A stretch of 56,495 nt of DNA, filler included, from Stramenopiles sp. TOSAG23-6 (GCA_900128565.1; 4 parts of 4 records of this genome joined end to end with filler, not necessarily neighbours in it), one strand, 5' to 3'; shown: positions 391 to 55,805, numbered from the whole stretch's first letter. The notes: generated from the sequence alone by a model not told the origin. Numbers and translations: made by a program.

Positions 391-3300
391 ATGTCTGAAT
401 GGTTTCATAATCCAAGAGAAGAAGCAGCCAAAAGAGAGGCCGTAGCTAACGTTGTTGCTGCTACTTTGGCTCTCAGAGAAATAACAGAGTCTGTTTCATC
501 TCTTGACAACGCAGAACGTGACATCCCATGGATTGCCAAATTAGGAAGAGAGATCGTACAATCAATGATTGATTCTATTAAAGTTGGTAAAAATACCAAG
601 CGTTTTGTTGTAAATGGACTACGTGGTCTCGTTGATGAACTTGTCGAATTTCTCAAAATAATTCTTTGTAGAAAGCCTAACAATCAAGTTGCTTCGGGTG
701 GAAAGCCTAACAATCAAGTTGCTTCGGCAATCTTGACTGTCAGCGAAATTTTTTCATACCTTCACTTGGATGTGAGACAAAGCCATGATCGCGATGTTGT
801 GACTGAACTCGCCAGACTACTTACAAATGGTTTATGTTTTCTCTCCAAATCAAAAATGGAGGCTGAACATACAGAGAAGATCACCGAACATACAACTTTA
901 TCCCAGCATGAGCAAATCAATTCGGAACTTCAACTTTATGCTGAGACTACAGGTGGTATTACGATTGATATAAATACATTTCTCAAAGTAGGATCTATAT
1001 ACAATACCAACGAAATAGCCAAACAAAGATCAGAGACTCACGTGGAATGTAGCAACTTATTGATTAACTTGAGTTCCTTACTATTCTCTACTACAAATGT
1101 GACCCTCCAATTTCGAGTAGCGTTTCTCATTTGTACTCTTTGTCTTCAGATGTTTCCAATGACTAAAGGACAATCCAGTAAATGCCAAAAAAAAGATATT
1201 TTATGTTTATTTCAAAATTCAATGAATATGGATACTGCTGGTCAATCTATCGAATTCAATCCTGGTTCTCAAATTGTCAAATTATATGATTCGCAAAAAG
1301 ATGAAATCCAAAATAAGGAATGTGGTATTTATGATTTCGTACATAATACCAATATTTCAAAAAATGATATTTCTGTTGTACATTGTAATGCTGTAAACAT
1401 TTGCACACAAAACTCAACAACTCCGATATTTGNATCAAAAAATTGTCAAGAAGACGTTACAATTGAAGAATGTCATGCTCATTTTGGTACTTTTGATTTG
1501 TATTTTGTACCGTCAAGTTCTTGTCGTTTTGAACTAAGGAATGGACTACCCGCTCTAAATTATTTTGATGTATGGTTTATTTTTTTTTTCAATTTTAATT
1601 TTAATTTTTTTTTCGTACGGAATTTCGTACCTAACGATTGTTTTTGTGATTTTGTATTTTTTCACAACACATGATATTGCATATCTTGAATGGTCTAAAG
1701 AAAATAGAGAGATTGATATAATACTTCGTCATAACGACTTTTCGTTATCAAATCCTATTCTATCAAATCTAAGCACTCTACTTAGTGAAGATAACTCTCA
1801 TATTTCTATTCGACTACGTTTTGATGATCGCGAAGCATTTACACGTAATCTTACTACAATTCGTCGACATATAAATTCTAAATTGAGACCTCGTCAAAGT
1901 GTCTGTCAAAATCGTACGTACAACGTAGCAAGTAGTCTTGCTGCGGGAAATTGTTCTCAAATAATTGCAAATGGTTCCTCTTCAACAGATCCGAAAACAC
2001 CTCTTAATGTACGTTTTCATAATGAATTTAATTTTTTTTAGTTTGTTTTTGCATCATTCACTTCAATTATTAATTATTTGACAAAAATATTGTACTAAAC
2101 TGTTTAAAAATTTATTTTTTTTCACAATACAGCGATTGGAAAATAAACCCGACTCTGATGTACCCGACTCTGATGTACGTTTTCAATTTTTTTCTTAATT
2201 TTTCGTAGGAAATTTTGTACCTAACAGTTTTTTTTCGAAAAAAAAATTTTGAATTTGTTTGTTATTTTTTCGTAGAAAATTTTGTACCTAACAGTTTTTT
2301 TTTTTGAAAAAAAATATTTCTGACAAAATATACGAGTCCTAAAAGTATATTTAATTTTAAAGTAAGTACTGAAATTGAGTGTCAACCGATGATTAATTCT
2401 TCTAAATCTTCTGATCAAATCTCAAAAAAACAATTACATGTCGCGAATCATACTAGTAGTAGTAGTAGGCCAAAAGACCTCTGGAATCTCCGCGGAACTT
2501 TGACATCTGTAACATCAGTTTTGAATGATGCAAATGAAGCAGAACTTAAAGAAGCTTGTAAACAATTAGGATTAAATTCTAATTGTGAACAAAAAGATTG
2601 GATGATCTGTCGTATCCAGGTAGAATTAATAAATTGTGGGAATATTATCAGAGATGATCAAACTATTGTATGTTTTCATGGTTAATTTTTTTTTGCTACG
2701 AAATTTCGTATCTAACGATTTAAAACTAGTTGAATAATTTTAAATTTTGAGGATTTTTTTTCATACGAAATTTTGTACCTAAAAAATTTAATAAAAATAT
2801 ATTTTTCACACTACATGTAAGTGATATATATATAATGTATGCATGCTGATTTTTATTTCGTTTAATCGTATCTAACTTTTTCATCCATGTATCTTTCACA
2901 ACACAGGTATTAAGAAATAATCAAAAACAAGAAACACGAAATGTATCTGATCAAATACAACAAACACAAGATAAAAATAATCAAAAACAAGAAACACAAG
3001 ATAAAAATAATCAAAAACAAGAAACACGACATACATCTGATACTGGTCAATCTGGTTCTGCCCAAGTAGTTAATCTGCCACAGGGACGCCATGATTCGTA
3101 CAGTATATGTAATATTGATGGTGGTGATAAAATACCTCAGATTCCTGGACTTTCACCAAAAGACAAAAGCACATTATACGATTACAAAAAATGGTGGAAA
3201 AACTTGTCTGAAAAACAAAAAATAAAGATGAAATCCGATTATACAACGTTTTTATCAAATAAAGTCCTAATTCGTGCTAAAAAAGCGAGAATGAAACAAT

Positions 3301-5198: not shown

Positions 5199-5338
5199 AA
5201 TGAATGTTTTGTGTTGTTCGTTACATCTGATTGATTTTTATTTGCAAATAAAATAGTCATTTATGATGATATATTTTTACTTTTCAAAATGTTTATTAAT
5301 TTATATTGATTTAATTTCTTTAAATGAGTGAATATTTC

Positions 5339-5395
5339 AATTTTGTACCTAACAAATTTAAGTTTTTTTTTTTGAAATATTTTTTCAAAATACAT
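5339..5395 (+). mobile_element. 3' half of introner-like intron (AT acceptor), donor not found
   Basis: aattttgtacctaacaaattt...tgaaatattttttcaaaataCAT|gta tgt gca act ggt. Confidence 0.7.
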
Positions 5396-6732
5396 GTATG
5401 TGCAACTGGTGTTTTACGCCCTCTTGAAACTGATTCTGCTCTAAGAATGATTATTATGGCAATGAGAATGTTGACCTGTATGGATGAAATGAATGAAGAA
5501 TTAGCATTAAATCTTCGAATTCGTATAGGAATGCATTCTGGAGATGTCACTGCCGGAATGATGGGTCAGAAACGGTTGGCTTTTGATTTATTTGGTCCCA
5601 CTGTGGAAATTGCAAATGAAATGGAAGCTGAAGGAGTAGCTTGCCGGATCCATGTCAGTAAAAACACAGTTGACGAAGTGCGAGGATCAAATGTTCATGA
5701 TATGAATGACATTTCATTTGAACCACATCCAAAGGCTGATGCTGACGGATGTATCCCAATTCCTGGGTACGGTTTAATGCAGACTTTTTTAGTCGTTGAT
5801 CATACCAGAGAAAATATTTTACAAAACTCAAAAAATATCAATTCAAATGCATTGCATAAAAAATCAGTAAATACTTCTTCCTCTTTAGGATCAAAATTTG
5901 ATTCTGAAAGTGGTGAAATCTCAGAACAAACAACAATCATTCAACAAAATAGTAATTCGAATAACACTAAAGAGTCATCTACTGTACATGAAGCGGATAC
6001 CAAAAAACTTCAGGAGAATCCAGCTAATATACAAAAAAGTTCAATTTGTAATGTAAGTGGAACGAAATCAAGCACAGGTATATCTAATATTCCACCAAGG
6101 GAAATCAAAGCTCCGTCACGAAAAACATCGACTCACTCCGAATTTACAGAAGAGTTCCCGAATATAATGACGTCACGGGGAAGAACGTCGCAAAAAACAA
6201 ATCACAGTCGTGGAGCTTCACTAAATTTATTAGAACAATTTGCACATTCTAAGAATCAAAGACGGCGTGAATTATCAAGGACTGTTTCTTTTTCATCTGG
6301 TATGTTTTTATTGTTTTTTTTATTTTTATTGTTTTTTTTTANTTTTTTTTTTTNAAATATTTTTATTTTTTTTTATTGTTTTTTTAAAAAAAATATTTTT
6401 ATTTTTTTTTGAAATGAGAAAATTTCATATCTAACATTTTTGTTTTACAAATATTTCTTCAAAATACATGTCGAGGAAAGAATTCTCGTAGAGTTTCATT
6501 TGAGTGTGACAATGACACTGTCGGTGGAACTCAGCAAATTCTAAATTCGTTAGGTACAAAATTTGGTTCGAAGTCAATTTCGAATTTACGCGGTGCACCT
6601 CATCCGGACAATGAAAATGATTCACAAACAAAACTTCCCCTTCATAGAAATAGAAATACTTCAGATGAATTAGAGATAGAGTCTAGTAAATTACGCCATA
6701 TGAGCTCGATGCCTAATATGGGTAGGAAATAG
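5396..6732 (+). CDS. Class III adenylate/guanylate cyclase domain protein, 5'-partial; exons 5396-6299 and 6470-6732
   Basis: VCATG...LRIRIGMHSGDVTAGMMGQKRLAFDLFGPTVEIANEMEAEG...RIHVS is the C-terminal half of a class III cyclase domain. It begins right after an element acceptor (tacat, 5395); no upstream exon is visible. Confidence 0.75.
6300..6469 (+). mobile_element. Introner-like intron, GT...AT (in-frame AG 6 nt downstream is an alternative)
   Basis: tg|GTATGTTTTTA, long T tracts, catatctaac, ttcaaaataCAT|gt; open frame continues to TAG at 6732. Confidence 0.7.
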
Positions 6733-9260: not shown

Positions 9261-12200
9261 ATGAGTATGAATAGTGAAAGTGGTTCCCTCTTTGAAGGTG
9301 GAGAAGATTCTTTATACACCTATGATGGGGATAGTTATGCTGACGAATATAATGATGATTCTAATAACGCAGATGATCTTGCGCTGATGGATTTAGGTGG
9401 TGGTATCGGTGTTTCTGATATATTTGGTACGGATATGGTAAAGAAGAAGAAACGTAAAAACAAACGGCGCTCTCTTTCAGATATAAAGGCAGAAGCTAGG
9501 CGCCGAGTGGAGCATAACGAAAGCAATCGTACTGTGCAGCTTACATCTTCTTTGAAAAAGGAGCGTCGAGAGACAGGAATATCTTCTACCGATGATGAAG
9601 ACGAGGAAGATAGAGAACGACAGGAATTACTGGCTCTTGAAGCTGAAGAGAAAAAACGTAAAATTGAGCTTGAAAACGAGGCAAAAAGAAAAGCTATGGA
9701 AGAAGAAAATGAAGCATCATTACAAAACACTCTTGGTTCACTTTCGTTATCTGAAACCGATTTTATTGTTAAAGCTAGTCAAGAACTCGTTGCTGATGGT
9801 AGGGATATAGATGAGAAGAACACCGACGACGTCGCAGATATACATGAAAATTCACCTGACGTGAAGGACACGTCATTTAATGCTAGTGGAACTGGTGGAG
9901 CAAGTCAATGGAGTGTTCGTGGGGGCTGTGGAGGAGGAGATGATAGTGGTTGGATGCTGTCAGATCAATTAAGTAATACAGGAGTTGTTCAACTAGGATC
10001 TCCTCAAGCAATTGAACTAGCAGAGTCCTCAGAATCAATAAGTGCTTCAAAAAATACGAATATGTCACCATCGGCTTCAACAAATCATTGGGATAATATG
10101 AAAGATGAAGGAGGATCAGATTCGAGTGATGATTTTGAGATTGATTCTGATAAAGAAAGTAAAGAAAAATTAACAAAAGATGATTTTGAGCTTGGTTCTG
10201 ATTCTGATAAAGAAAGTCTTAAACAACATACAATAGAAACATTAAAAACAGATACGATGGAATCAGTTGAATCTGAAAATGTTTCCTCACAGTCTCGTAA
10301 TACTGAAAATGATAAATANATTCAACACAGTGCTTCTGAAGATGGTGATGGATCTAATNTACATCAAAATCATGAATTCATGAAAAGTTTCACATCAGAG
10401 CAAAAAATGAAAATAGAATCATCAAATGATGATTTTTTTCATGAAAGTGAGTCAATGGACCTGACAACTGAAGGAAAGCAAGATATCACATTGAGTGCAC
10501 AGATCTTGAAACTTAATTCTGATATAGAAGAGGTAAATGATCCATTGAAGAAACACAAAGCTACAATGAGACAGGCTTGGGTTGAAAATAAAGAAGAATT
10601 AAAATCCCCAAAGAAGTCAAAGAAAGCAAAACGAATTGACATAAATTCTACCAAAAATGTAAAACGAAGAAAAAAAGTAAGACATCGAGGAAATAGTAAA
10701 AAACGAAGTATACGTAATAAATCAAATATTCGAAGGACCTCAAAAGAATACAGTACACATTCAATCCTCTCAAAGAAAAATGGGACAATAAAAGCAAACC
10801 AAAAAAAAAAAAAAAAAAATTTGAAATCGAGATCAAAAACAAAAACAAAAACAAAAAGCAGAGTAAACAGTCGGACACGACGTTCAAATCTAATTCCAAA
10901 AAGTGATGGTCGATCTCGACTTGCAGCCGTTCGTTCTTTGCAACCAAATGTATCCTACGACACAGATGTATGTTTTATTTTTATTTTTTTAAATTTGAAA
11001 TTGATTTTTTTTTCGTACGAAATTTTGTACCNAACAAATTTTTTTTTTATAGAAAATTTTTGAAATATTTTTCCAAAATACATGATGCAGCTGAAAAAGC
11101 TGAAAAAGAAGCATTTTGGTCCGCTATGCAGCAATCAATGTTATCGAGTCAGAAAAGCATGGAGGAAGCGAGTGATATATTACGTGGTAGTTCCCAAGAA
11201 GGATTTGGTACAATTATTTCCTCATTACAAGCTACTGTAGTTGCAAAAGAAAATGCCTTAGCTGCCGCTGAAGAAGCAATATTGTTACGCGATGGTGATG
11301 TGAGAAGACTAGAAGACGCGCTAGAACAAGCTACATCAAAAATCCAACAACAGGAATTGATTTTAAACGACGAAAAAAACTCATCCCAAATAACAGATGA
11401 ATCAAACCATAACCAAAAAGCAATAGAAGAAAAGACAAAATCTGAAATACAAAAGGAGATTATTGACTCTATAAGACTCACAGGAAACGAAACTGCAATT
11501 GAAAAAGTGAATCATTTAGAAAAAGAACTTGAACTTCAGGAGGTATTATTGAAAGGACTTCACACTGAAAATGAACGACTTGTTCAGAAAATGCGTGAAA
11601 ATGAAGAAAATTCGCGTTCTATGAGAGATGCAATGTTTCATGAAAGAAACAAACTCAATATTGAAGTAAATCAATTACGTAATGAAACTGGGACAAGTGA
11701 AACATTTAGGATGTCTCAACACGATTCTCCTGGCAGGGTCATGCATATTGCAAGTAATAGAAATGGTGAATTACTTCGACGAAATTTAGAATTAGAGACA
11801 TGTATTCAAGCAATGCGTGATGAGATGTCAGAACTGAGAGAACGTAGTGCAAGACGTCATGCAGAATTTCGTGAAGAAAGACGAATGTTAAAAGAAGAAC
11901 GACGACAATTGGAAGTTAAATTATCTGGTGTAAACGAAGATACAATAACTGCTATAAATAGTGAAGTAAAAGAACTTAGATCGAAACTTTCGATATCAGC
12001 AGCTCAGCATGCTGAAGAGGTGGCGATGCTTCAGGATAAAATTTCATTTCATGTTGAAAATGCAAAAATGGTTGATGAAAATAATGCCACAATTTCGAGG
12101 CAAGCTCAAGAAATTCGACAACTTCGTTCCCGAGTTCATTGTGATGAAGGTTTTGATCCAAATGTTGGGAATGGAAGTCGACATCGTCGTCGTCCTGGTA

Positions 12201-13344: not shown

Positions 13345-13435
13345 GTACATTCTTCATATTGAATTTTATATTTGTTTTTGTAGATAATTTTGTACCTAAC
13401 AAAAATTTAAAATTTTTTGAAATATAAATTCACAT
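13345..13435 (+). mobile_element. Introner-like intron, tentative GT...AT
   Basis: at|GTACATTC...ttttgtacctaac...tgaaatataaattcaCAT; the downstream frame is open to TAA at 13615 but has no recognisable homology. Confidence 0.5.
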
Positions 13436-28264: not shown

Positions 28265-28364
28265 NNNNNNNNNNNNNNNNNNNNNNNNNNNNNNNNNNNN
28301 NNNNNNNNTTAATTAATTAANNNNNNNNNNNNNNNNNNNNNNNNNNNNNNNNNNNNNNNNNNNN

Positions 28365-28446
28365 AAAAAAATTAAATTCGAAATTTGTTAGGTACAAAAT
28401 TTCGTACGAAAAAAAAAAAAATTTGAAATTCATAATGAAAACGTAC
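28365..28446 (-). mobile_element. 5' part of introner-like intron, truncated by gap
   Basis: Minus: gt|GTACGTTTTCATTATGAA...TTCGTACGAAATTTTGTACCTAAC... then N. Confidence 0.8.
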
Positions 28447-29848
28447 ACCAAGTTGGCAAGTTTTTCATCAATAAAGGAAGGAAGCATAGCTGTATTAATT
28501 GTAAATTGTTGCTTCCATACCTTTTCAGGTGATACCGATGGATTACTAGCGACAAAAAATTCACTGTAAGGATCAGAAAAAATTCCTACTTCGCACCAAC
28601 TTTTTAAACAATTAAATAAAGGTTTTGTTAGTGAATCTAATTGGCTCTGAACAAAGTTACTTACTGTTATATCACCGTGTTGCATATGTAGATATATAGC
28701 AGATGCAAGCGCCCCTCCATGTATTGTGAAAAATATTCTAAAAGTTTGGATTTTTTTGTTAGGTACGGAATTTTCATCGAAAAAAAAAATAAAAGTGTTA
28801 GGTACAAAATTTCGTATGAAAAAAATAAAAAAATTTGAAATTGATGATGAAAACGTACATGAAGTCCAATAGATGAATCGGCAATTATTGCCATCAAGCG
28901 CAAGCGATCAATTGGTGTTTGTAACCATATAAACAATCGTCGCAATGTCAATGAAAAGTGCTGTGGTTTTCTATTTTCTCCTTCTTCTTTTTTATTATTT
29001 TTGTTTTGTAAAGCATCGCGATTAACTTGAGCTTGAATTATCGCAATTAATCTATAAAATTCGCTTAACTCAGTTTTCAATGAAAAACATAACGCATTTT
29101 GACATAAACCTGAACGGGTATCTTTTTCACAATGTTCAATGAAATTACCGAGCTTCCTAAAGAGCCAACCACCTTCAGTGATTTTACGTATCAAAATTCT
29201 CGTAGGTTTTGGAACTCCAAAATTAGCGCATACGACATAGCCTCGCTCAGTAGCATCATACTTAATATACGTACCATCAATACCCTGAAGAACAAATAAA
29301 ATATCTCTTATCAATAATTGCTCAGATACTTCAAATGAAAAGTTTTTACCAACGTTGTAGTGAGTCTCAGAAAAATTAATGGTTTTTGTAGTTTTTCCAG
29401 GGGATTTTTCACAGTGATTACTAGATAATGATACATTTTCTTTTAATGATAATCCTAGACTCGGTTCTAGCAAACTTGGTTGAAATGAAGGAGGGGAATC
29501 TGAACTCATACTTTGAGAACCACGTAGTGCATGGAGAATCTGAAGTACTCCACTTTTGTTCTGAATGGCGCCAGACTTTCTGAATAAATGACATAGCTCT
29601 CGGAATTTCAATGGGACGCTCGTTTCATTACTATTAACTCGAGCAAGATAACGCTCTATTTTGATAGCCATTGTATCAATATCATTCCTAGATAGTATTC
29701 GTGAGTTGGTGGTTGAGGTTGAGCCTACAATACGCACGCAGTATTCTAATAAACTTGAATGCTTTTCTTCGTTATGTGGGCATATACTGGACACAAGTCG
29801 TCGTAATAGTAACGCAACCACTTCTTCTGGTCTAGCACTACGCTCCAT
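28447..29848 (-). CDS. TUBGCP3: Gamma-tubulin complex component 3 (Spc98 family), 3'-partial; exons 29848-28859 and 28718-28447
   Basis: EVSEQLLIRDILFVLQGIDGTYIKY, GLCQNALCFSLKTELSEFYRLIA, LTLRRL, GGALASAI...HGD, DPYSEFFV, MLPSFI match GCP3 grip motifs. Confidence 0.88.
28719..28858 (-). mobile_element. Introner-like intron with two cores, GT...AT
   Basis: Minus: cat|GTACGTTTTCATC...gtacctaac x2...cacaataCAT|gga ggg gcg; restores GLH|GGALASAI. AGs at -19 and +4 are both out of frame. Confidence 0.88.
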
Positions 29849-30113: not shown

Positions 30114-33100
30114 ATGGATCCCAATATATCTACAGATATGAAAGCAACAAAGGATCGCTTCGACACATTACTGAATGAACTTTGTAATGAAAATCCTGAT
30201 TTATCTGGAGTCGTGGTGGTATCTGATGAGAAGAGATTGAACGCAGTAAGGAAAGATTTTGAAGACTGTTCAAATCAAAAAGAATATCTTAGTGTTCTGC
30301 ATAGACACTTATTTCAAGAAGAACAAGCTCAATTTTGTGACAGTATAAATGTTCCTATTCGTTGGTTGCGAGAAGCATGTCGTAAAGATGATACATCTAT
30401 GCGGGAATCCCCGACCGAAAAGCAAGTCCGACTAGACGTGCAGCGTGATATAGTTGTAATCAATGACTCTACTTTTATTGGCGCTGATTCTGGTTTTGAC
30501 AAAATATTTAATCATCTCACAGGAAGCATCAAAGAAGTGGGAGAAAACGTAAACATCGATATAGAAAAACTAAATAAAGAAGCAATGAAAATTCTAACAG
30601 AAAGCTGTAGAAGTGTGTCTGCCGGCGATTCGTTTGATGCAGTAACAAATTTATTAAGTTCACCATATATCCATGTACGTTTTTTCTCATCATGAATTTT
30701 TTAAATGTATATTTTTTTCATAAAAAGTCATAGTCTTACAAAAATTGAAATTTGACATATATTTTTACAATAAATATCACACAAGATACTACTTGTTCAA
30801 AACCAATTCGTCTAGATGTTCATTTGGGTGCTTTTACAAATGGATGGGGTCTTGGTGTTGCAATAAATGTTGTGTCTCTTTTTAACATATGTTCACCAAT
30901 AACAGATACTGAAAATGAACCAAATATTTTACAAAAACTTTCAGTCACTTTTCAAAAAAAATGGTTATTAGATGTTGAAATTGGAAAAAGTATGAAACGT
31001 GCACCTAAAACAAAATACGATAAAGCAAATAATGAGATAAATACATCTAGTTATGTTCCAGATGATGGTGTGATTCTATTTTCACTGCGTTCAGAACAAA
31101 ACAAAACTGTGGATACTTCAATAATTAATGGGAAACAATATAATGAGAAAGATGAAACAAGTAGCAGCATTCCTATCAATCTCCCTTCAGATGAAAGCGA
31201 GGAAGATGGGATTATTTCGTCTGATTCTGAATTTGATCAAAATGGCAATGAAAAAGATTTCAATGAACGAAATAGCTCTGTAAATCATATGAAACGTTCG
31301 CTTAAGCGTGCTAAACATAAATCAAAAGCTCGGGCTCGTGCAAAACAAATGGCTGAAGCTGCAGGGATGATACGTAGCGATAAAACAAAGCAAGTAATGA
31401 ATCAAACAAATAATAATATAAATACAAGAAACAACTCTGCTAGTGGTGACACATTATCGACCTCAAGTCATTGGAATGGCCATTTATTAGAGGATACAGA
31501 TACGTTGGAAAATATGGCTTGCACTGAAGTCTTCTGCATGGGTGATAATTCACATGGAACTCTTGGATTAGGAGATTTAAACACGAGAAAAACTCCTTCA
31601 TTGTTATTAATACCTAGTGAAATTACTGGTCTTGCACGCGTGAAATCCATATCATGTAGTGCGTTACACTCTGTGGCTGTGACGGATCTTGGTATCGTCT
31701 ATACATGGGGATCAGGATCTGAAGGTGCATTAGGCCATGGTGATAGTGAAGACTCTGCAATCCCTAGATTTGTAGAATATCTTGCAACGATGGATCCACC
31801 TGTACAAGTAACTACAGTATCAGCAGGATCGGAGATATTAGGTGCGCATACCGCAGCAATTACATCCGGCGGAGAACTTTTTCTATGGGGTTTAGGTGTT
31901 GCCACGGGTCTCGGTAGTGGTACAAATGTTGAGCTCCCGAAACAAGTTGAAGAATCGAGGCTTGGAAGTGATAACCCTGAGAAGGGTGGAGGTATTGTGA
32001 CTGCTGTTGCGTGTGGGGGAGCATTTACAATTGCTGTAACTGCTGATGGGTCATTATATTCCTGGGGTAAGTGGGCGAGTGGTCGCCTGGGACTTGGCAT
32101 GCCTCAAGCACATAAAAGCAGAGCTCGAGGAAAACTTTTTAAACGAGCTCGAAATCCACGCTTTCAATTGGTTCCAAAACGAATTAAAAGTATTTTGCTG
32201 GACAAATTTATTACACACATTGCAGCTGGTGAGGCTCATGCATTGGCAGTAGACAGAGACGGTACTTTGTATTCGTGGGGCAGAGGTTCATCTGGTCAGC
32301 TAGGGACATCAAATAGTCGTGATAGTATGGAACCTATGAAGGTTACAGGTCAAGACGTGTACAATAGAAAAGTATTCCAAAGCAGTCAAATTATTCCGTA
32401 TACTTTAAACGGCAATCAATCCGAATTGAATCATTTAGGTCCTATTATATGTGTGTCGTGTGGTATTAATACTTCTGCAGCGGTCACACAAAATGGAAAG
32501 CTTTGGGTGTGGGGTGGAGGAGGCCGAAGAGTATTGGGGCTTGGCTTACCTTTGGGTAATAAACTTGCTGGTTTAACGGTTCAAAGACAAGCACAGATGC
32601 AAAAACTTGAAGATGAAGATAGTACCGAAGATGCAAGAAAACGACGCGGAGATTGGTTTTTGCCTCAACAAGTCAATGCACTATCTGAATTGCATGTTTC
32701 AGAAGTTTCGTGTGGCTCGCATCACATGTGTGCAGTGACTCGTCACGGTTCTTTGTATATGTGGGGTAAAATAAATGATGACCCAGTTGTATCTATACCC
32801 CGATTATTATCATCCATTGCGCCTGCTGGTGAGAGTCTAAAGGAACGCCAAGCGCGTGCTCTTGATCCAAGAAATAAACGCCAAAGGGAAGAAGAGGATT
32901 TAGGACAACGTCAAGTCATTTCTGTAGAGTGTGGTGGATCCATGATATTTGCATTAGCCCATAGTAATATATTGGGCAATGCAATGCTAAGTGAAATGGA
33001 ACGATGCGTCGCTGTTGTTATTGCTACTGAATCCCTTGACCCAACAGGATGTGATGCTACTATATTTGCATCGGGTAGACCGATATATGCACATCGCTTA

Positions 33101-38990: not shown

Positions 38991-39961
38991 ATGGTACTTG
39001 ATTTTGCAAGGTTGCGAAAGGAAATGAAAATGCAAAGGAAAAAAAAAGTTGAAGTCAAGCAGACTTCAACTCTTCTAGATGACTCCCTGACTTTCAATTT
39101 GGCATCACGCCGCCTTACAATTCCTGGCTGTAAGTATGAAGTATTTTATATACCAAACTTTTTGAATGAAAAAGAGAGTCAATTGGTAGACGCTGGAATT
39201 TTTGAATGCTCTGGTGTGTGGTCGACTCTATCCAATCGAGAACTTCTCAATTTGGGTGGTATTCCACATCCAAGTGGGATGATGGCAGATGAACTCCCTA
39301 ATTTCACAAAAGTCATTTGTGATCGTCTTGTCTCTTCAGGTATATTCCCAAGCAATTTATACCCAAACCAAATTCTTGTAAATAAATATACACCTGAGGG
39401 AGGAATTGCTCCACATCAAGATGGACCATTGTACTATCCTCAAGCTGCTGTTCTTTCTCTACGAAGTGCTTCTGTAATTCATTTTTGGACTTTACCAAAT
39501 GATAAATTTAAAAAAAATGGTTTTGAAGTTGTCGCAGACAAAGATCCTTTATTTTCTGTAGTATTAGAACCGCGTAGTCTATTAGTATTTAGCAAAGAAG
39601 CATATAGTAATCTTCTTCATGGAATTTATCCCGGAAATTCTCCTATTGTTGTAAACCCCAAAACATGTACGTTCATCATATTTTTTATTTTTTTTTCGTA
39701 CGAAAATTTGTACCTAACAAATTGTAACGTTTTTTTTGAAATATTTTTCGTAATACATGTAACTTGAAAGAACTTTACTGCAATCAACAAAAAATAAATA
39801 TATCTATTGGCGATGAAATAAAACGAAACAATAGAGTTAGTTTGACTTTTCGTACTGTCAAATTTGTAAAAAAAGAATCGAATGATTTTTTATCAGATGA
39901 AGAAAAATTTGAAAAAAAAAGGAGATGGAATTGGTGGTTAAGTTCAATTTCAGAAGACTAA
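38991..39961 (+). CDS. ALKBH6: AlkB-family 2OG-Fe(II) dioxygenase, ALKBH6-like; exons 38991-39666 and 39759-39961
   Basis: YIPNFL, NRELLNLGG, PNQILVNKY, PHQDGPLYYP (HxD), LEPRSLL, LHGI; terminal RVSLTFR lies in exon 2. Confidence 0.85.
39667..39758 (+). mobile_element. Introner-like intron, GT...AT
   Basis: at|GTACGTTCATC...ttcgtacgaaaatttgtacctaac...cgtaataCAT|gt; brings RVSLTFR into frame; the first downstream AG (+12) creates TAA. Confidence 0.87.
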
Positions 39962-42360: not shown

Positions 42361-42419
42361 GTATGTTTTATTTTTTTTTCAATTTCAAATTTATTTTTCG
42401 TACGAAATTTTGTACCTAA
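42361..42419 (+). mobile_element. 5' half of introner-like intron, truncated by gap
   Basis: at|GTATGTTTTA...ttcgtacgaaattttgtacctaa then N. Confidence 0.8.
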
Positions 42420-42573
42420 NNNNNNNNNNNNNNNNNNNNNNNNNNNNNNNNNNNNNNNNNNNNTTAATTAATTAANNNNNNNNNNNNNNNNNNNNNNNNN
42501 NNNNNNNNNNNNNNNNNNNTTTGTACCTAACAATTTTTTTTAGATTTTTTTGAAATATTTTTCCAAAATACAT

Positions 42574-42935
42574 GGGCAACCAAACTGCTCTTGAGCAAGA
42601 AATGCTGCTGGAAGCGGATATTAATAAAGATGTATGTTTTAGTTTTTTTTTAAACAAAAAAATCGAGTTTTTTTTTCGTACGAAAATTTGTACCTAACAA
42701 ATTTTAGTTTTTTTTTTTGAAATATTTTTCCAAAGTACAGGGCGTTCTTTCAAAAGAGGAGAAATTGAATTTTGTTAAGAAAAAGAGTAAGAGCATTGGA
42801 AGACGAAAAAAACGAAAGAAGAAATCAAAAAAAGACTTGTCCTTTGATTTTGATGATACAAGTAAAATGGTACTTTTAGGGGTTGGAGTAGCTACTGTTG
42901 CAATAGGTGTATTTTTTTATATGAAGAGACGGTGA
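42574..42935 (+). CDS. C-terminal exons of a tail-anchored protein (42574-42631, 42741-42935)
   Basis: Follows an AT acceptor at 42573; GNQTALEQEMLLEADINKD|GVLSKEE...MVLLGVGVATVAIGVFFYMKRR. Confidence 0.6.
42632..42740 (+). mobile_element. Introner-like intron, GT...AG variant
   Basis: at|GTATGTTTTAG...ttcgtacgaaaatttgtacctaac...ttccaaagtaCAG|ggc; phase 0. Confidence 0.85.
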
Positions 42936-44491: not shown

Positions 44492-46049
44492 ATGTGGAAT
44501 AACGGGACGAATGCACTTCCTGTAGATTTGAAGAGGCTAGATAACTTACGTAACTCTAAAGACCCTATGCTGCTGCTGCCGAAAAGTAGCCAGCAAGCAG
44601 CATGTAATAGTCTTGCTTGGATTGCAGAAATTGCCGATGAAGTAAGAAAGCAAGATTCGTCGACAATTACGTCAAATGCGTCAATAGCTGCGTTACAGAA
44701 TAATAAAACTGTTCCACGCGGGTTCAATCCAACTGAGTATAGTAGTAATTTCACGTATACACAAATGAATACACAACCTAAAGTACATAGACTTATACAA
44801 TCAAAATCACCCATACAACAACAGCAGTTTATGCCATCCCCGGAAGGTAACCATTCAAGTTATATAGGTGACGTATATCATACTGGAAATAATATAAATG
44901 CCGCGTATGCCTCTCATGGGCCTGGTCGTAATCAATCCAGGTACGAAAATAGTAATTGTTTGTCGAATAGCCCTAATAGAACAAATGCTTTGAATATGAA
45001 TAGATTACAATTTGCGCAGAATAATAATTCTAATTTTTTGTTTCCTAGGCGAATGACATCTCACCAGAGCATTGCGTTCCAAAATTCCAGTGCCTATGCA
45101 CAACAAGCTCAAATGAATCATTCCATGCCTGGGTACGTTTTCGTCATGAATTTCATTTTTTTTTTGGTACGAAATTTTGTACCTAACATTCTTGTTTTTC
45201 GAAATATTTATTCACAATACAGTTTGACAACTGGAATGACAACAGGATTGAAGCGCAAATTCATGGGGGACATTATAGACCCATCAATGGCAGACAGCAT
45301 GTGTGTTTTATTTTTTTTCAATTTCGAATTTTTTTAATATGAAATTTTGTACCTAACATTTTTAGTTTTTTTTTAAATATTTTTCCAAAATACATCCAAC
45401 GAAACAGAAAATTACTGAAACTATCTGCACCTCCACCACCCTATATGTCACAACAATCTAATTTAGTTTTTCCTAACCGTAACTTTTCAGGCCGAGTTGG
45501 AAACAATCAAATACAAAAAAGTAAAGCACCAGTTCGACGCCCACGGCCAAAAAAAGGCCCTTTAACTGCCGAAGAGAAGCTGAGACGTAAAAAGCAGCAT
45601 GCTGATGTTGAACGAAGGCGGAGTGCTCGCATTATTAGTTTATTCAATACCTTACGAAGAGTTTTACCATCGCAGAATGTATGTTTTANTTTTTTTCNAA
45701 NTCNAAANTTTTTTTTTTATAGTAAATTTTGTACCTAACGAATTTTTTTTTGAAATATTTTTTCAAAATATATGATTTGGAATACGTTGGTCCGGGTATT
45801 TCGGCGTCTTTAGTGAAAAAAAATGCAACACCGGTCAAGAAAAAAAAGAAACGGTCTAATGTGAATACAGTTGTTTTAGATAAGGTTTCCGTTTTGTCTC
45901 AGGCAGTGAATCGTATTAAAAAGCTGGGAGCTACACTGAGGGCAGCTGGCAAATTGGTAGTTTCTACTGTTACGTCTGATGGTGGTAAACCTACAGGGAC
46001 ATCTGGTAAACCTAACCCTAAACCTAATAAGAAGAAAGATAATAAATGA
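44492..46049 (+). CDS. bHLH transcription factor; exons 44492-45132, 45223-45300, 45396-45678, 45774-46049
   Basis: Basic/helix 1 RRKKQHADVERRRSARIISLFNTLRRVLP and helix 2 LDKVSVLSQAVNRIKKL are joined by removing 45679-45773; N/Q/S-rich N-terminus. Confidence 0.82.
45133..45222 (+). mobile_element. Introner-like intron, GT...AG variant
   Basis: gg|GTACGTTTTCGTCATGAA...gtacgaaattttgtacctaac...cacaataCAG|t; 90 nt. Confidence 0.85.
45301..45395 (+). mobile_element. Introner-like intron, GT...AT (in-frame AG at +12 possible)
   Basis: at|GTGTGTTTTA...gaaattttgtacctaac...ttccaaaataCAT|c; in frame with ORF 45445. Confidence 0.78.
45679..45773 (+). mobile_element. Introner-like intron, GT...AT
   Basis: at|GTATGT...ttttgtacctaac...ttcaaaataTAT|gat; first downstream AG is +40 and out of frame. 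Confidence 0.83.
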
Positions 46050-49435: not shown

Positions 49436-52400
49436 ATGCTAGTAGATGAAGACGGTAAAGACAACTCTATTGTAAATGAAGAGTCCAAGCCACTCTTGAG
49501 TAGCACCGACTCACAATTTAAAGAAAATACTAACGAAAATCAAACAGTAAAAAACGTTTGTTGGAATCGACATTATGTTATCATAATTCTCGTGACGTTA
49601 ACAGTTATAACTGCTATCTCTTTGGTAGTTGCACTTAAACTACAACCTACAAAAAAAAGCCCAAACAATGTAATTACTCCAAACAATGACGGGGGAGCTG
49701 AAGATAAAAGTTTTTTTGATCGAACAAATGAGGTGACTAGTTTAGTCCAGGGCACCCAAAACTATGTAAAGAAAGCTAAACGAGACGACCGCACTTACAA
49801 ATATATCACTCTATCTAATAAGTTAGAGGTTCTACTTGTCAGTGATCCTTCTACAGATGTTGCTGCTGCATCAATGTCAGTGGGTGTTGGGTCTCTTTGT
49901 GACCCTGAGCAATTTGCAGGACTTGCACACTTTTTGGAGCATATGCTTTTTTTAGGTTCGGAAAAATTTCCAAATGAAGACCAGTTTGCAAAGATAATCT
50001 CTCAACATGGTGGGTTTACTAATGCTTATACTGCATCTTCTGAAACGAATTATCACTTTAATATTGGCGAGCAATATCTTAAAACTGCGTTAAAAGTTTG
50101 GAGTCAATTTTTTGTATCGCCACTTTTGACAAAGAGTGCCATTGAGCGTGAAGTGAACGCAGTGAACAGTGAGCACGAGAAAAATATAAATAATGATGCA
50201 TGGAGATTCTCTCAGCTACTAAAATCTACTTCATCAGCATCACATCCGTATCACAAGTTCGCAACAGGTAATTTAGACACACTTTTGAAGTCTAATTCAA
50301 ACGATAATTTGGAAAAGGCTTTAAAAACTTTCTTTACACAATATTACGTAGCAAATAAAATGAAGCTTTCTATTTTAGGTAGTGAATCTGTGAATGATCT
50401 CCAAAAATATGCCAAAACACTATTCCAAGATATAAAAATGTCTGCTGATGATTCTGATTTCTGTTACTCTCCTTCGGTGTACGTTTTTATCCCTACCCTT
50501 AATTTCAAATTTATTTTTTTCGTACGAAATTTTGTACCTAACGAATTTTTTTTGAAAAAAAAAAATCCTTTTCACAATGCATCGTACGCGAGCCAGATAA
50601 GCTTGGAGTTCAATATATTCTTAAACCTATTGCAAAAAAGTATACTTTAGAAGTTTTTTGGTTCTTCCCGCTGATGCGTACTCATTTCAAAATCAAACCT
50701 TTAAGTTACATTGCAAGTCTTATGTATGTTTTATTTTTTTGAAAATTTGAATTTGTTTTCGTACGAAATTTTGTACCTAACAATTTTTTTTAGATTTTTT
50801 TTTGAAATATTTTTCGAAAATACATTAGCAATGAGGGCAAAAATTCTTTATTATCGAATCTAAGAAAGAAAAAGTGGGCTGATAATGTTGCAGCTAGTGA
50901 GGGGGATGAAGGTTATGATTACACTATATTTTCAGTGTATTTCTCCTTGACAGAATTAGGAGTTACAAAGGTTGACGAAATATTGCTTCTTCTTTTTGAA
51001 TTGATAGGTAAAATGCGCCAGGAGGGTGCTGAGGAATGGCGTTGGCGTGAACTTCAAAAGATATCACAATCTTCATTTGACTATCAAGAAAAAATGGATC
51101 CTTCTGATTATGTTGAATTTATATCAAATGCAATGCAACAATATCCAAGGGTTAATATTCTTACTGGTAGTTTCATTTTCGAAAATTATGAAGCTGACGT
51201 TATTCGTAATGCGATTGATATGTTGACCCCAGAGCGAATGGTTGTAATGGTTGGCGATCCAAGTAAAAAAGATGATTTTTATACAAAGGAAGAACATATT
51301 TATAAGACCAAGTATACGGATAATAATATACCCAAAGAGTTTCTTAAAAAACTCGGGAATGTATCAACCACACACACAAAATCCTTATCGCTTCCACTGG
51401 AAAATCAATACATTTCTACAGATTTTTCATTATCCCCTAATGTTCAAAAATATCATGATGAAAAAAGTCCTAGCACGGATAGTAAGAATTGCGATCAAAA
51501 TTCCTGTAGACCAAAGTTACTGGAGAGTCAAAGTCGTCACAGAGTTTGGGTTCGACCCGACCGTTACTTTGGAAACCCTCATATAGACCTAACGATCTTA
51601 ATTGACATGGGAAGGGGAGAGAAAAGAGAAGTTCAAGAAGTAGAAACTCCATCTGATAAAATGCGATTTAAAAGATCGGCTACCAGTGTATATACTGATG
51701 AAATGATGGAGGTTCAGGGAAATGACAGTAAAAAAGTAAATGTGAGCAGTAGCATTGTAGAAACAAAGAAGCTCTTACGACAAGAGTTGATTAAAATTAT
51801 TTATGCTAATGTGCTGTCACATGCGTTAGTAGAAAAAATGGCAGATGCTTCGGTAGCAGGATATTCAGTCGATTTCGATAGAACAAGCACTGGAGTTTCA
51901 CTGAATATTCGAGGATTTTCAGAAAAGTTTGACAAAGTTTTGAAAGAAACTTTAGATTTTATTAGAACTTTTCTTTCAAGCGAAGAAAACTTTGAAAACT
52001 TTGAAGAAATTGTACAGAGCATTACAAGAGGATGGGAAAATTTCCCCAAACAACAACCTTACGAAAAGGCATTGTTTTTGCTTAAATATACACTTCGAGA
52101 ACCTGTATTTACACCTGCCGAATTCCTACAAGAATTACATAAAACAGAGTCGGAATCTAAAATTAGTAATGGCAATGGCGATGAAAGTCCTTCCCCAGTA
52201 TCTTCTTCACTAAAAGCAGGTAATGTACCAGAATCTAAAAGTAGTAAAGACTCAGTAATACATGAACTAAAAAGCAGTGATGGAGGTCCCATAAGTCCAC
52301 CAAAAGGACCACCAAAAGCTAGGTTTAAAGAGAAACAAAGGCGGGAGAACAACGGTCGATTTCGTGCAGTGAAAACTCTTGCACCTACCGCCCCGAGTAG

Positions 52401-53925: not shown

Positions 53926-54302
53926 AATTNTTTATGTGAAAATTTTTATATTATATATAATTGATTATATTNTTTTTCAAAATTTAATAAAAAATAGGAA
54001 TAAAAAGTGATTTTTTATTTTTAATGCTCCCGAGATCAGATACAAAATTGTCTACAAAAAAAAATCCTTAATGTATTTTATGATCTCGATCTCTCAATCA
54101 TCAAAGAAAGCAAGCATAAGAATTCCATGATTCCGTACCATTTTTTNGTATGAAAAGACAAGAAGAATTTGACACAGAAAGAATTCCGGAAAAATCATTT
54201 TTTGGCCATTTTTAAAATTTTCGGGTCAGCTTGACTCGAGTGAAAAAAAACACTATTCACAAACACGCTTACACAGTTTTTATATCAAAAGGTAATACCG
54301 TA

Positions 54303-55805
54303 ATGGATTACTCGAAATGGGATAATCTTGACACTGGAAGTAGTGGTGACGATTCTGATGATGCGTATGGACGCTTGCCACCATCTCTACCCACATTTAA
54401 CGACACGTCGCTTTTGCAGTGTGGTGTTCAAGAGCGAAAAATTGGTCAGCTAGCAGTAGATGCCTGTCTGGAGAAGCTTGCTTCTGGAGCTGACCCAAAT
54501 AGCTGTAATAGAATGGGCCAGACTGCGTTGCACATTGCTGCCATCTGGGGTGGAATGGGAGTTGGGCGAACTCTACTCAAAGCTGGGGCTAATGTAAACG
54601 CTCGTAATATGATGCGTGGTTCAACGCCTCTTATGATGGCTGCTGGACGGGACCAAGCTGAATTTGCAAAGTTCCTTCTCGAGAACGGTGCAGACCCCAC
54701 GATGCGGGATACTTCCGGTCAATGTGCCTGGCAAATGGCTTCTGACGAGTCTCTTCGCATGCTTTTAGGAGGTCCATCGCCAGAGCTCACTGATGCGACT
54801 CTCGAAGGAAATCTTCAAAGGGTCAAAGACGTCCTTCGCCGCAATCCCGAGCTTTTAACCGTGCGCAATGGTGACGAAGAAACAGCCCTTACACTTGCTC
54901 TCAAAGAAAGACATTGGCCAATCGCTAGATACTTTATCAATCACCCTGACGCGGCATCTCTAATAAATTTAGAAGATTCAGACGGCGCATATCCTCTGCA
55001 CCTTTGTGTTCGTATGGAAAATCTCCCTCTTGTTGCTGAATTGCTGAAATGTGGTGCTGATCCTAACCAGAAAGCCTATCGTTATACTGAATATACCAGT
55101 GGTAGGTTTGATAAAATAGATAAGGCTACTGGAGAAAAGACGACTGTTTCAAACGAACATTGTACGCCCCTACTTGAATGTGCAAAAAATGGTAATATCG
55201 ATATTGCGAAGTTACTCATTCAGAGTCGATGTGACGTTGACGCGACAGATGGCGATGGATGTACAGCTCTTTATATCACGCTTGATGAATACGCTGATGC
55301 TCTTGATGATGATGAATCTGAATCTAAATCTAAAGATCGTATCGAGAAGAAAAAAGCGATGGCGGCTCTTTTGCTATCAAGTGGTGCATCCCCAAATATT
55401 GGTAACGCTTATATAGGCTACGATAATACACTTCTTGCTTGGGCATCATCGTCAAAAAATATTGAAGTTGTTAAACTTCTTTTACAATACAAAGCAGACC
55501 CAAATATTGCTGGGAAATCTGGAATGTACCCGCTTCATATGGCAACTCGTGTAAACTGTGTCCCAATACTACAATTATTATTGGAGGCTGGTGCTACGAT
55601 TGATGTAAAGAACAAAACAGGCCAAACTGCTTTATGTACTTTTTTTTTTTTTCACATTTTTTTTTCATATGAAATTTTGTACCTAACGATTTTTTTTTGT
55701 TAGTAAAAAAAAAATATATTTTTTCACAGTACATATCTATCCCAAACTTGTAAGAAGACAGATATTACAAACCTATTATTACAAGCAGCTGCCGCTCTTA
55801 TATAG
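54303..55805 (+). CDS. Ankyrin-repeat protein; exons 54303-55635 and 55735-55805
   Basis: Many repeats (GQTALHIAA, GSTPLMMAA, GAYPLHL, GMYPLHMA); last repeat GQTALYLSQTCKKTDITNLLLQA is completed by splicing; N-terminal MDYSKWD motif. Confidence 0.9.
55636..55734 (+). mobile_element. Introner-like intron, GT...AT
   Basis: at|GTACTTTT...gaaattttgtacctaac...ttcacagtaCAT|at; the CAG 5 nt upstream would break the ankyrin frame. Confidence 0.87.

What the first reader, a model, noticed from the sequence alone, without database searches (positions are those of the whole stretch)
1570..55734. Abundant non-canonical GT-AT intron class formed by one repeated element
Seen: 18 complete copies of a 90-170 nt element interrupt coding frames (starting at 1570, 2009, 2175, 2668, 6300, 10968, 13103, 13345, 28858-, 30675, 39667, 42632, 45133, 45301, 45679, 50479, 50724, 55636). 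All begin GT and nearly all have a CTAAC-type branch motif a few tens of nt before the end. Fifteen end in AT (mostly TACAT) and three end in AG at the same aligned position. Three orphan 3' halves (5395, 42573, 56443) also end TACAT. Removing GT...AT restores the frame in all three phases. Established: U2-type introns almost always end in AG. Inference: this organism routinely splices an AU 3' splice site in conserved genes, implying altered 3' splice-site recognition or an element-specific splicing aid. A few copies (6300, 13103, 45301) also have an in-frame AG close by and are not diagnostic.
Basis: partly seen in the sequence, partly recalled or inferred. Interest (0 to 1): 0.95.

Follow-up and report, generated by a model that had tools for sequence, protein, structure and literature searches.

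The report
Repeat-made introns that end AT
A small mobile DNA element has seeded about twenty introns in this stretch of a marine protist genome, and most of them appear to end in AT instead of the near-universal AG, although this still needs proof from RNA.

Summary
One roughly 100-nt repeat family interrupts coding frames 20 times in 56 kb, always in sense. Every copy starts GT (mostly GTAYGT) and most have a CTAAC branch motif and a T-tract. Sixteen end in AT and four in AG.

The window is a marine stramenopile. Its proteins match EukProt entries labelled GSMAST32 (MAST-3) at 99-100%.

- 14 of 20 copies are preceded by AT, so the element looks like a MITE (ends GTAT...ATAC) with a 2-bp AT target duplication.
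- In 12 of 16 AT-enders the borders can therefore slide, for example to AT-AC. GT-AT is the only reading open to all 16.

Supporting evidence:
- The left AT varies freely, while the right one varies only between T and G, as a splice site would.
- At one insulinase junction, 192 of 192 homologues favour GT-AT removal over an AG 3 nt downstream.
- The public gene model forces GT-AG and reads into the intron.

No RNA evidence could be obtained.

Best reading: an introner family whose 3' splice site is the AT duplication (confidence 0.6). Precedents exist in Fritillaria and Amoebophrya, so this is a new variant of a known kind.

The parts
1570..1672 (+). element copy, gat|GT..ACAT|g, phase 0
   Evidence: joins 414 and 122 open codons
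2009..2132 (+). diverged copy, GT..ACAG (canonical end)
2175..2331 (+). copy with tandemly duplicated core, GT..ATAT, phase 0
2668..2906 (+). composite: an element ending ACAT at 2816, then GTAAGT and a second 3' end CACAG; only 2668-2906 joins the ORFs
5337..5395 (+). 3' half of an element ending TACAT, directly before a cyclase-like exon; no 5' half found
6300..6469 (+). copy, ctg|GT..ACAT, phase 1; no 5' AT; in-frame AG at +6
10968..11083 (+). copy, gat|GT..ACAT, phase 0
   Evidence: joins 587 and 702 open codons
13103..13212 (+). copy, gcc|GT..ACAT, phase 0; no 5' AT; in-frame AG at +3
13345..13435 (+). copy, gat|GT..CACAT, phase 0
28365..28446 (-). 5' half of a second copy in the gamma-tubulin-complex gene, ggt|GTACG.., running into a scaffold gap
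28719..28858 (-). copy in the gamma-tubulin-complex gene, cat|GT..ACAT, phase 0
30675..30775 (+). diverged copy, cat|GT..AAAT, phase 0, in the RCC1-BTB gene
39667..39758 (+). copy in a 2OG-Fe(II) oxygenase gene, cat|GT..ACAT, phase 1
42361..42573 (+). copy split by a scaffold gap, cat|GT..ACAT
42632..42740 (+). copy, gat|GT..ACAG (canonical end)
45133..45222 (+). copy, tgg|GT..ACAG (canonical end), phase 2
45301..45395 (+). copy, cat|GTGTGT..ACAT, phase 2
45679..45773 (+). copy splitting a helix-loop-helix domain, aat|GT..ATAT, phase 0; no AG from -45 to +30
50479..50582 (+). copy in the insulinase gene, ggt|GT..GCAT, phase 2; AT-AC reading impossible
50724..50825 (+). copy in the insulinase gene, tat|GT..ACAT, phase 2; the best-tested junction
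   Evidence: 192 of 192 homologues
55636..55734 (+). copy in the last ankyrin repeat, tat|GT..ACAT, phase 1; competing CAG at -5
56443..56495 (-). 3' part of a minus-strand copy cut off by the window end

Best explanation
The window comes from a compact, AT-rich marine stramenopile of the MAST-3 group. This assignment rests on a source's label and on the best named hits.

A non-autonomous DNA element of about 90-170 nt has inserted into many genes. It has short inverted ends (GTAT(G)TTTT ... AAAATAC) and a palindromic core (CGTACGAAATTTTGTAC) followed by CTAAC. It appears to insert at AT and to duplicate that AT.

The element carries a strong U2-type 5' splice site (GTAYGT), a branch motif (CTAAC) and a T-rich tract. 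The 3' splice site is supplied by the downstream copy of the duplicated AT. Cutting at |GT...(C)AT| removes the element plus one AT and restores the original message exactly. In 4 of 20 copies the last T has become G, giving an ordinary AG.

What is shown:
- the repeat family and its sense-only orientation;
- the terminal anatomy;
- frame restoration;
- residue-exact homology at one junction;
- a forced GT-AG public gene model that reads into the intron.

What is inferred:
- that the copies are spliced at all;
- that the chemical borders are GT and AT;
- that this lineage's major spliceosome tolerates U at the last intron position.
For: - Repeat family: 24 core matches against 0.03 expected; alignment of 14 copies.
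- 20 of 20 copies are in sense and start GT. 16 end in AT and 4 in AG. 18 of 20 have CTAAC or CNAAC 25-48 nt upstream of the end.
- 14 of 20 are preceded by AT, against a window-wide AT frequency of 0.093. The binomial tail computed for 14 of 19 was 2.7e-11. It was not recomputed for 20.
- GT-AT is the only register open to all 16 AT-enders. AT-AC is open to 9. Four copies have no 5' AT at all.
- The upstream dinucleotide varies like exon sequence (TT, TG, CC, CT, GG, GT). The terminal one varies only between T and G.
- The ends are complementary: 6.6 of 10 positions against 4.48 +/- 0.33 for shuffles, with a maximum of 5.67 in 2000 shuffles. Folds pair GUAU with AUAC and leave the terminal AU free.
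- Insulinase junction 50724-50825: 192 homologues span it. All 192 score higher with the 102-nt removal. 191 align without a gap near the junction. All 192 need a gap if the AG at +3 is used.
- The last ankyrin repeat keeps its 33-residue register with GT-AT. It scores 11.0 bits against 5.3 bits for the CAG at -5, using a small self-built profile.
- The gamma-tubulin-complex Pfam profile runs to position 129 five residues before the end of the upstream exon and resumes at position 138 at the first residue of the downstream exon.
- With the element's own donor, 5 of the 11 correctly set AT-enders have no usable in-frame AG from -45 to +60.
- The public model P0241 (99% identical, named GSMAST32.ASY1.ANO1.1295.1) reads 22 codons into intron 50479 and uses the +3 AG at 50724.
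Against: - I obtained no RNA evidence.
- Frame restoration is expected for any insertion with a 2-bp duplication, whether spliced or not.
- In 12 of 16 AT-enders other registers give the same message.
- If any GY donor within +/-60 nt and any AG within -60 to +90 nt is allowed, all 14 copies examined have at least one in-frame, stop-free canonical combination.
- At junction 50479 homology is inconclusive. Of 221 spanning homologues, GT-AT scores best in 92, a GT(-2)...AG(+10) alternative in 101, the annotated model in 13, and 15 tie. Only the five top-scoring homologues shown favour GT-AT.
- From recalled knowledge, a G at the first and a U at the last intron position are not a pair known to work well in the second splicing step.
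- Between the branch motif and the end there are 3-6 other AT dinucleotides, so AT alone cannot be the signal.
- All evidence comes from one 56-kb window. Motif scans of three public collections found nothing.
Confidence: 0.6

Rival explanations
1. The same element and the same spliced message, but the spliceosome cuts two bases upstream at both ends wherever it can. That gives AT-AC introns (ATGTAT...ATAC), a terminal pair known to work. Copies without a 5' AT would use some other register.
For: AT-AC is available in 9 of 16 AT-enders. AT-AT is available in 2 and AT-AA in 1. These are termini seen among non-canonical minor-type introns in Physarum (bioRxiv 10.1101/2020.10.12.336362, passages). 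The element proper (GTAT...ATAC) is symmetric, so either copy of the AT could serve.
Against: Four AT-enders (6300, 13103, 14240-, 50479) have no 5' AT. The 5' dinucleotide varies as TT, TG, CC, CT, GG and GT, which would be odd for a splice site. The 3' one varies only between T and G. The conserved GTAYGT would sit at +3 to +8, unlike the known AT-AC 5' sites (recalled; the U12 consensus [G/A]TATC[C/T]TTT is quoted).
Confidence: 0.12
2. The copies are removed by ordinary GT-AG splicing at cryptic sites near each insertion, as the public annotation assumes. Each host protein would then carry a small insertion or deletion.
For: All 14 copies examined have some in-frame, stop-free GY..AG combination within the search range. 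In-frame AGs lie at +3 (13103, 50724), +6 (6300) and +12 (45301). At junction 50479 a canonical alternative scores best for 101 of 221 homologues.
Against: At 50724 the +3 AG is rejected by 192 of 192 homologues. The annotated model at 50479 scores worst on average: 62.1 bits against 66.5 and 66.2. With the element's own conserved donor, the nearest usable AG lies 39-78 nt downstream for 1570, 2175, 10968, 13345, 28858-, 39667 and 45679, and there is none for 30675 or 50479. This reading also fails to explain why the last positions (C-A-T/G) are among the best conserved in the element.
Confidence: 0.08
3. The element is cut out by a mechanism that does not depend on terminal dinucleotides. Pairing of the intron ends would guide it, as proposed for non-conventional introns of euglenids and for Amoebophrya introners.
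For: The ends are more complementary than shuffled controls. Amoebophrya introners combine inverted repeats with 3-5 nt direct repeats that overlap the borders (PMC7789003, passages).
Against: The pairing is only about 4-9 weak A-U or G-U pairs. The consensus fold finds only a 5-bp internal hairpin at -1.14 kcal/mol, with no covariation. All copies keep a full set of U2-type signals (GTAYGT, CTAAC, T-tract). The borders are uniform, not variable.
Confidence: 0.07
4. The copies are unspliced recent transposon insertions in decaying genes, or they are artefacts of single-cell amplification and assembly.
For: A duplicated AT and inverted ends are transposon hallmarks. Three scaffold gaps sit inside copies. 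Fragments of the core also lie outside introns.
Against: 20 of 20 genic copies are in sense. The copies are diverged (mean column identity 47%), yet the flanking frames stay open for hundreds of codons in conserved genes such as the insulinase and the gamma-tubulin-complex component. Four copies have acquired AG at exactly the terminal position.
Confidence: 0.05
5. They are minor (U12-type) introns, in which GT-AT and AT-AC termini are tolerated.
For: [quoted passage not shown] ACCTAAC loosely resembles the U12 branch motif (recalled).
Against: 0 of 20 copies have the TATCC 5' motif. The branch motif lies 25-48 nt from the end and is followed by a T-tract. U12-type branch sites lie about 10-12 nt from the end (passages).
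Confidence: 0.03

Closest known systems
Introners: transposon-derived spliceosomal introns of Micromonas, Aureococcus, Symbiodinium, Chrysochromulina and others (PMC9860276 passages; PMC12130899 passages)
   Same: A short non-autonomous element is present in many unrelated genes, with a target-site duplication and/or inverted ends. One splice site is carried by the element and the other is taken from the duplication, so splicing restores the original message. These elements are typical of aquatic protists.
   Different: In the passages I read, introner families use GY-AG. The 2025 survey discarded families with unfamiliar splice sites unless RNA supported them. Here the duplication that supplies the 3' site is AT, so the site is non-canonical. 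MAST and stramenopiles are not mentioned in the main text of either paper (0 occurrences). I could not see the supplementary tables.
Non-canonical introns of the larvacean tunicates Fritillaria borealis and F. pellucida (PMC13326754: abstract, section 21 in full, passages)
   Same: 3' AT is a major 3' splice site there: 34% and 44% of introns. A YAY triplet forms the last three bases and is often present just before the 5' site. A U-rich tract is kept. According to a review, those introns carry inverted terminal repeats (PMC11282704, passage cut short); their MITE origin is recalled. Here 15 of 16 AT-enders end in CAT or TAT, and 6 of 20 copies are preceded by CAT or TAT. A further 8 are preceded by GAT or AAT.
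   Different: The Fritillaria classes start mostly with AG, and only 5% of its introns are canonical. Here every copy keeps a strong GTAYGT. The host is a stramenopile protist, not an animal. Whether U2AF is duplicated, as it is in F. borealis, could not be checked because no genome is held.
Amoebophrya non-canonical introns and introner elements (PMC7789003, passages)
   Same: A marine protist with repeated intronic elements that have inverted repeats and 3-5 nt direct repeats overlapping the borders. The exact borders are therefore ambiguous, and classical gene predictors fail.
   Different: Amoebophrya shows no dominant terminal dinucleotides and has longer (8-20 nt) inverted repeats. Here the termini are uniform (GT, then AT or AG) and standard branch and T-tract signals are present.
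Non-canonical U12-type introns of Physarum, proposed to be transposon-driven (bioRxiv 10.1101/2020.10.12.336362, passages)
   Same: GT-AT, AT-AA and AT-AT termini occur. A transposon with a 2-bp duplication (TA there) is proposed as the source, and the earlier annotation had forced GY-AG.
   Different: Those introns carry U12-type 5' motifs and a branch motif 10-12 nt from the end. Neither is present here.

Membership tests
Introner (transposon-derived spliceosomal intron family) | Many similar copies as introns of unrelated genes | tested here: met
   20 copies in about 12 genes within 56 kb; core motif 24 matches against 0.03 expected; alignment
Introner (transposon-derived spliceosomal intron family) | Transposon hallmarks: target-site duplication and/or terminal inverted repeats | tested here: met
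   AT on both sides in 12 of 20 copies and 5' AT in 14 of 20; ends GTAT..ATAC more complementary than any of 2000 shuffles. No empty site was available to prove the duplication.
Introner (transposon-derived spliceosomal intron family) | Copies are removed from the transcript at defined splice sites | not testable with these tools
   The read-laying run was lost. No transcript-derived proteins were found. There is only indirect support from open frames and homology.
Introner (transposon-derived spliceosomal intron family) | Presence/absence differences between strains or relatives | not tested
   No related DNA was found: 0 hits in metagenome, genome and viral contigs
U2-type GT-AG intron | 5' GT with extended consensus, branch motif, pyrimidine tract | tested here: met
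   GT in 20 of 20 (GTAYGT in 15 of the 19 tallied); CTAAC or CNAAC in 18 of 20, 25-48 nt from the end, followed by T-runs
U2-type GT-AG intron | 3' terminal AG | tested here: not met
   AG in 4 of 20 and AT in 16 of 20 at the aligned terminal position
U12-type (minor) intron | 5' motif [G/A]TATCCTT | tested here: not met
   0 of 20 copies
U12-type (minor) intron | Branch motif about 10-12 nt (up to about 20) from the 3' end, no pyrimidine tract | tested here: not met
   Distance 25-48 nt, with T-tracts
Fritillaria-type non-canonical intron | YAY triplet as the last three intron bases | tested here: met
   CAT 12 and TAT 3 of the 16 AT-enders; one ends AAT
Fritillaria-type non-canonical intron | Non-GT 5' end (AG most often) | tested here: not met
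   GT in 20 of 20
Hairpin-guided non-conventional intron (euglenid or Amoebophrya type) | Stable pairing of the intron ends and variable borders | tested here: not met
   The consensus fold gives only a 5-bp internal hairpin at -1.14 kcal/mol. End pairing is 4-9 weak pairs. The borders are uniform.

The most novel reading that the evidence does not exclude
A free-living marine stramenopile lineage (MAST-3) routinely splices U2-type introns that have a standard GUAYGU 5' site but (C)AU at the 3' end. The cause would be an AT-targeting miniature transposon that seeded most of its introns. This would be a relaxation of 3' splice-site recognition independent of the one in tunicates. It would predict changes in U2AF or in second-step factors. 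It would also mean that published gene sets for the lineage are systematically mis-modelled.
Probability: 0.55. Interest if true: 0.8.

Novelty: new variant of a known kind. Interest (0 to 1): 0.7.

Why it matters
If RNA confirms it, this would be a second, independent and much simpler case of a major spliceosome accepting a non-AG 3' end on a large scale. The 5' site and branch site stay canonical and only the last base differs. That isolates 3' splice-site choice as the variable. It also ties the change directly to the target preference of one transposon family.

There is a practical consequence too. The public model of the insulinase gene in this window reads into the intron and drops conserved residues. 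Gene catalogues for this abundant group of uncultured ocean predators may therefore be badly fragmented. The group's genome paper reports only 2,694-3,289 genes for assemblies of 19-21 Mb (PMC5778133, Table 1 as quoted), while this window alone holds about two dozen genes in 56 kb. The link between those two numbers is my inference.

Tried and rejected
- RNA reads. Five coded seawater metatranscriptome runs hold 10-19% of the sampled words of 44400-54300. So there is no read evidence either way.
- Transcript-derived proteins.
  - A search with insulinase exon A (222-709 aa range) gave nothing above 52% identity.
  - A search for shorter proteins with the start of exon C gave no hits.
  - The representative search gave only the annotation-derived model P0241.
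- More copies elsewhere. A 22-nt core pattern had 0 matches in metagenome, genome and viral contig collections. No whole genome is held. Earlier findings of this scan returned nothing.
- Rfam at gathering thresholds gave 0 matches in the window, so no snRNA gene could be inspected.
- The consensus RNA fold gave no meaningful structure.
- Pfam on the short downstream exons (ankyrin tail, HLH second half, oxygenase tail) gave nothing useful.
- The protein-atlas look-up of the CPSF73 homologue did not place the organism.
- Tunicate origin was considered because of the Fritillaria parallel. I rejected it because the best named hits are oomycetes and ochrophytes and because of the GSMAST32 label.
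- U12-type splicing was considered and rejected (see the membership test).
- Systematic miscall of TACAG as TACAT is judged unlikely, because 16 copies have T and 4 have G in the same assembly. It was not tested against raw reads.
Full report
**What is there.** The window has 34% G+C and is densely packed with long open frames. A repeat search and a motif scan show one family of short elements. The 17-nt core GAAATTTTGTACCTAAC, allowing up to two mismatches, occurs 24 times against 0.03 expected, and none of 100 shuffles reaches that count. Fourteen copies align over their whole length to this consensus: (AT)GTATGTTTTATTTTT...TTTTTCGTACGAAATTTTGTACCTAAC...T-run...TTTGAAATATTTTTYCAMAATACAT.

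**The copies.** My final table lists 20 copies with both ends inside the window.
- All 20 lie in sense to the flanking ORFs and all start GT.
- 18 have CTAAC or CNAAC 25-48 nt before the end.
- 16 end in AT and 4 in AG at the same aligned position.
- Removing GT...A[T/G] joins long open frames in phase 0 (11 copies), phase 1 (3) and phase 2 (4). Two copies interrupted by gaps were left out of the phase count.

- The ends of 2175, 13345 and 30675 are at other positions.
- 2668 is a composite that only works as 2668-2906 with an AG end.
- The 'orphan' halves at 42573 and 56443 are not orphans. One is a copy split by a scaffold gap and the other is a minus-strand copy cut off by the window edge.
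- A further minus-strand copy lies at 14240-13967.

**Whose genome.**
- The intron-free CPSF73 homologue (34626-37256, minus) is 100% identical over the searched part (residues 60-520) to a protein from a public assembly.
- It is 89% identical to a EukProt entry named GSMAST32.ASY1.ANO1.515.1.
- Its next named hits, at about 60%, include oomycetes and ochrophyte algae alongside many animals.
- The insulinase gene matches GSMAST32.ASY1.ANO1.1295.1 at 99%.
- By that label and those neighbours, the organism is a marine stramenopile of the MAST-3 group.
- Five seawater polyA metatranscriptome runs hold 10-19% of the sampled words of one 9.9-kb stretch.

In 14 of 20 copies the two bases before the GT are also AT, where the window-wide frequency of AT is 0.093. 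The first four bases (GTAT) pair with the four bases before the terminal AT (ATAC). Over ten positions the ends are more complementary than any of 2000 shuffles, 6.6 against 4.48 +/- 0.33. The simplest anatomy is therefore a miniature inverted-repeat element, GTAT...ATAC, flanked by a duplicated AT.

Two consequences follow:
- Removing the element plus one AT restores the frame for any such insertion, spliced or not.
- The borders can slide. AT-AC is possible in 9 of the 16 AT-enders, AT-AT in 2 and AT-AA in 1.

**Why I still favour GT-AT.**
1. *Register.* GT-AT is the only register open to all 16. Four copies (6300, 13103, 14240-, 50479) have no AT upstream.
2. *Variation pattern.* The upstream dinucleotide varies as coding sequence would (TT, TG, CC, CT, GG, GT). 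The terminal one shows only T or G, and the A and C before it are invariant in the ten aligned copies. That is how a splice site behaves.
3. *The donor.* The conserved GTAYGT is a textbook U2-type donor only in this register.
4. *Evidence that the copies are removed.*
   - They are diverged (mean column identity 47%).
   - All 20 are in sense.
   - They sit in conserved genes whose frames stay open for hundreds of codons: an insulinase, a gamma-tubulin-complex component, a 2OG-Fe(II) oxygenase, an RCC1-BTB protein and an ankyrin protein.

**Can ordinary AG sites do the job?** The evidence is mixed.
- With the element's own donor, 5 of the 11 correctly set AT-enders have no usable in-frame AG between -45 and +60. 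The copy at 1570 was given a wrong end in that call.
- If any GY within +/-60 nt and any AG within -60 to +90 nt is allowed, all 14 copies examined have some in-frame, stop-free combination. Open frames alone therefore cannot exclude cryptic canonical splicing.

Homology is more informative.

*Junction 50724-50825 (insulinase).* An AG lies 3 nt downstream and in frame. 192 homologues span the site. All 192 score higher with the 102-nt removal. 191 align without a gap. All 192 need a one-residue gap if the AG is used.

*Junction 55636 (ankyrin).* A CAG lies 5 nt upstream and opens another frame. Only the AT junction keeps the 33-residue ankyrin register. It scores 11.0 bits against 5.3 bits with a small profile built from three of the protein's own repeats, which is modest support.

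*Junction 28858- (gamma-tubulin complex).* The Pfam profile resumes within a few positions across the junction.

*Junction 50479 (insulinase).* The result is inconclusive. Of 221 spanning homologues, GT-AT is best for 92, a canonical alternative for 101, and the annotated model for 13, with 15 ties. The five top-scoring homologues shown, which conserve an R-E-P motif encoded just after the AT, favour GT-AT.

**The public model.** The EukProt protein for this gene reads 22 codons into intron 50479. It then splices from a GT inside GTACCTAAC to a downstream AG, and uses the +3 AG at 50724. It scores worst against homologues, 62.1 bits against 66.5. The paper on MAST-3 single-cell genomes describes gene prediction with protein, transcript and ab initio evidence. 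It says nothing about non-canonical introns in the passages I saw. The word 'intron' occurs twice and 'splice' and 'canonical' not at all (PMC5778133).

**Mechanism proposed.** The element brings the donor, the branch site and the T-tract, and the downstream AT of the duplication serves as acceptor. In 13 of 18 copies the acceptor is the first CAT or CAG after the last branch-like motif. Another 3-6 AT dinucleotides lie in between, so the signal is probably YA[U/G] read in context rather than AU alone. The four AG copies look like later T-to-G improvements. How U at the last position is accommodated in the second splicing step is unknown. I could not inspect splicing factors or snRNAs, because no genome is held and Rfam finds nothing in the window. 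No strong RNA structure supports an element-specific splicing aid.

**Comparison with what is known.**
- *Introners.* Transposon-made introns are well described in aquatic protists. In some families one splice site comes from the target duplication (PMC9860276, passages). In the passages I read they are GY-AG. The 2025 survey discarded families with unfamiliar sites unless RNA supported them (PMC12130899, passage).
- *Fritillaria.* 3' AT is already the commonest 3' end in F. pellucida (44%) and F. borealis (34%), with a YAY triplet at the end and often before the 5' site (PMC13326754, section 21 read in full). Those introns mostly start with AG.
- *Amoebophrya.* It has repeated non-canonical introns whose direct repeats blur the borders (PMC7789003, passages).
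- *Physarum.* GT-AT also occurs as a rare U12-type variant there. The U12 signals are absent here.

**Is it in print?** I found no paper that reports introners or non-canonical introns in MAST-3.
- I ran searches.
- None of the 15 papers listed holds the word 'introner'.
- The Incisomonas genome paper has 0 occurrences of 'intron'.
- I could not see supplementary tables of the introner surveys, which covered Tara Oceans genomes. They may list this lineage.

**Verdict.** The best reading is a new variant of a known kind: an introner family whose target duplication (AT) doubles as a non-canonical 3' splice site in a stramenopile. My confidence is 0.6. The main gap is the lack of any RNA evidence.

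Noticed in passing
window 6549-6565(-), 16685(-), 17996-18012(+), 38239(+), 44006-44022(+), 56194-56210(-): Short fragments of the element's palindromic core (..CGTACGAAATTTTGTACCTAAC..) lie outside introns. Three of them lie 100-370 nt downstream of the stop of a same-strand ORF: 17829 to 17996, 43909 to 44006, and the LRR gene stop at 6930 to 6565 on the minus strand. They could be decayed copies or a motif with a role at 3' ends.
   Followed up: no
window 14087-14186, 28265-28364, 42420-42519: Three of the six N gaps sit inside element copies. All three are of the kind '44 N + TTAATTAATTAA + 44 N'. The repeat evidently breaks the assembly, which hints at a high copy number genome-wide.
   Followed up: partly
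window 49436-53922 (+): The public gene model for the insulinase (P0241) also removes two in-frame, stop-free stretches inside the long last exon. One is about 370 nt between 52164 and 52534, and the other is 23 codons after '..DMEHG'. These are probably spurious predicted introns.
   Followed up: no
window 5199-6412 (+): A guanylate/adenylate-cyclase-like ORF starts at Pfam profile position 63, directly after an element 3' half ending at 5395. The exon that should encode the first third of the domain is not found in the roughly 200 nt back to the preceding gene's stop. This could be a truncated gene, a chimeric join or a missing exon.
   Followed up: partly
window 6877-8184 (-): A 72-nt tandem periodicity corresponds to 24-residue leucine-rich repeats of the ORF at 6930-8945.
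   Followed up: no
window 37672-38027: Two 178-nt tandem units at 96% identity lie next to a 113-N gap in an apparently non-coding stretch.
   Followed up: no
window 18095-19183 (-): An ORF combines an RsfS ribosomal-silencing-factor domain with a weak, below-threshold AP2 match (E 5.6e-05, 23.8 bits against a cut-off of 33.3).
   Followed up: no
window 2668-2906 (+): An element copy ending ACAT at 2816 is followed at once by GTAAGT and a second 3' end, CACAG, at 2906. This could be a nested or two-step intron, or a copy that recruited a downstream canonical acceptor.
   Followed up: partly
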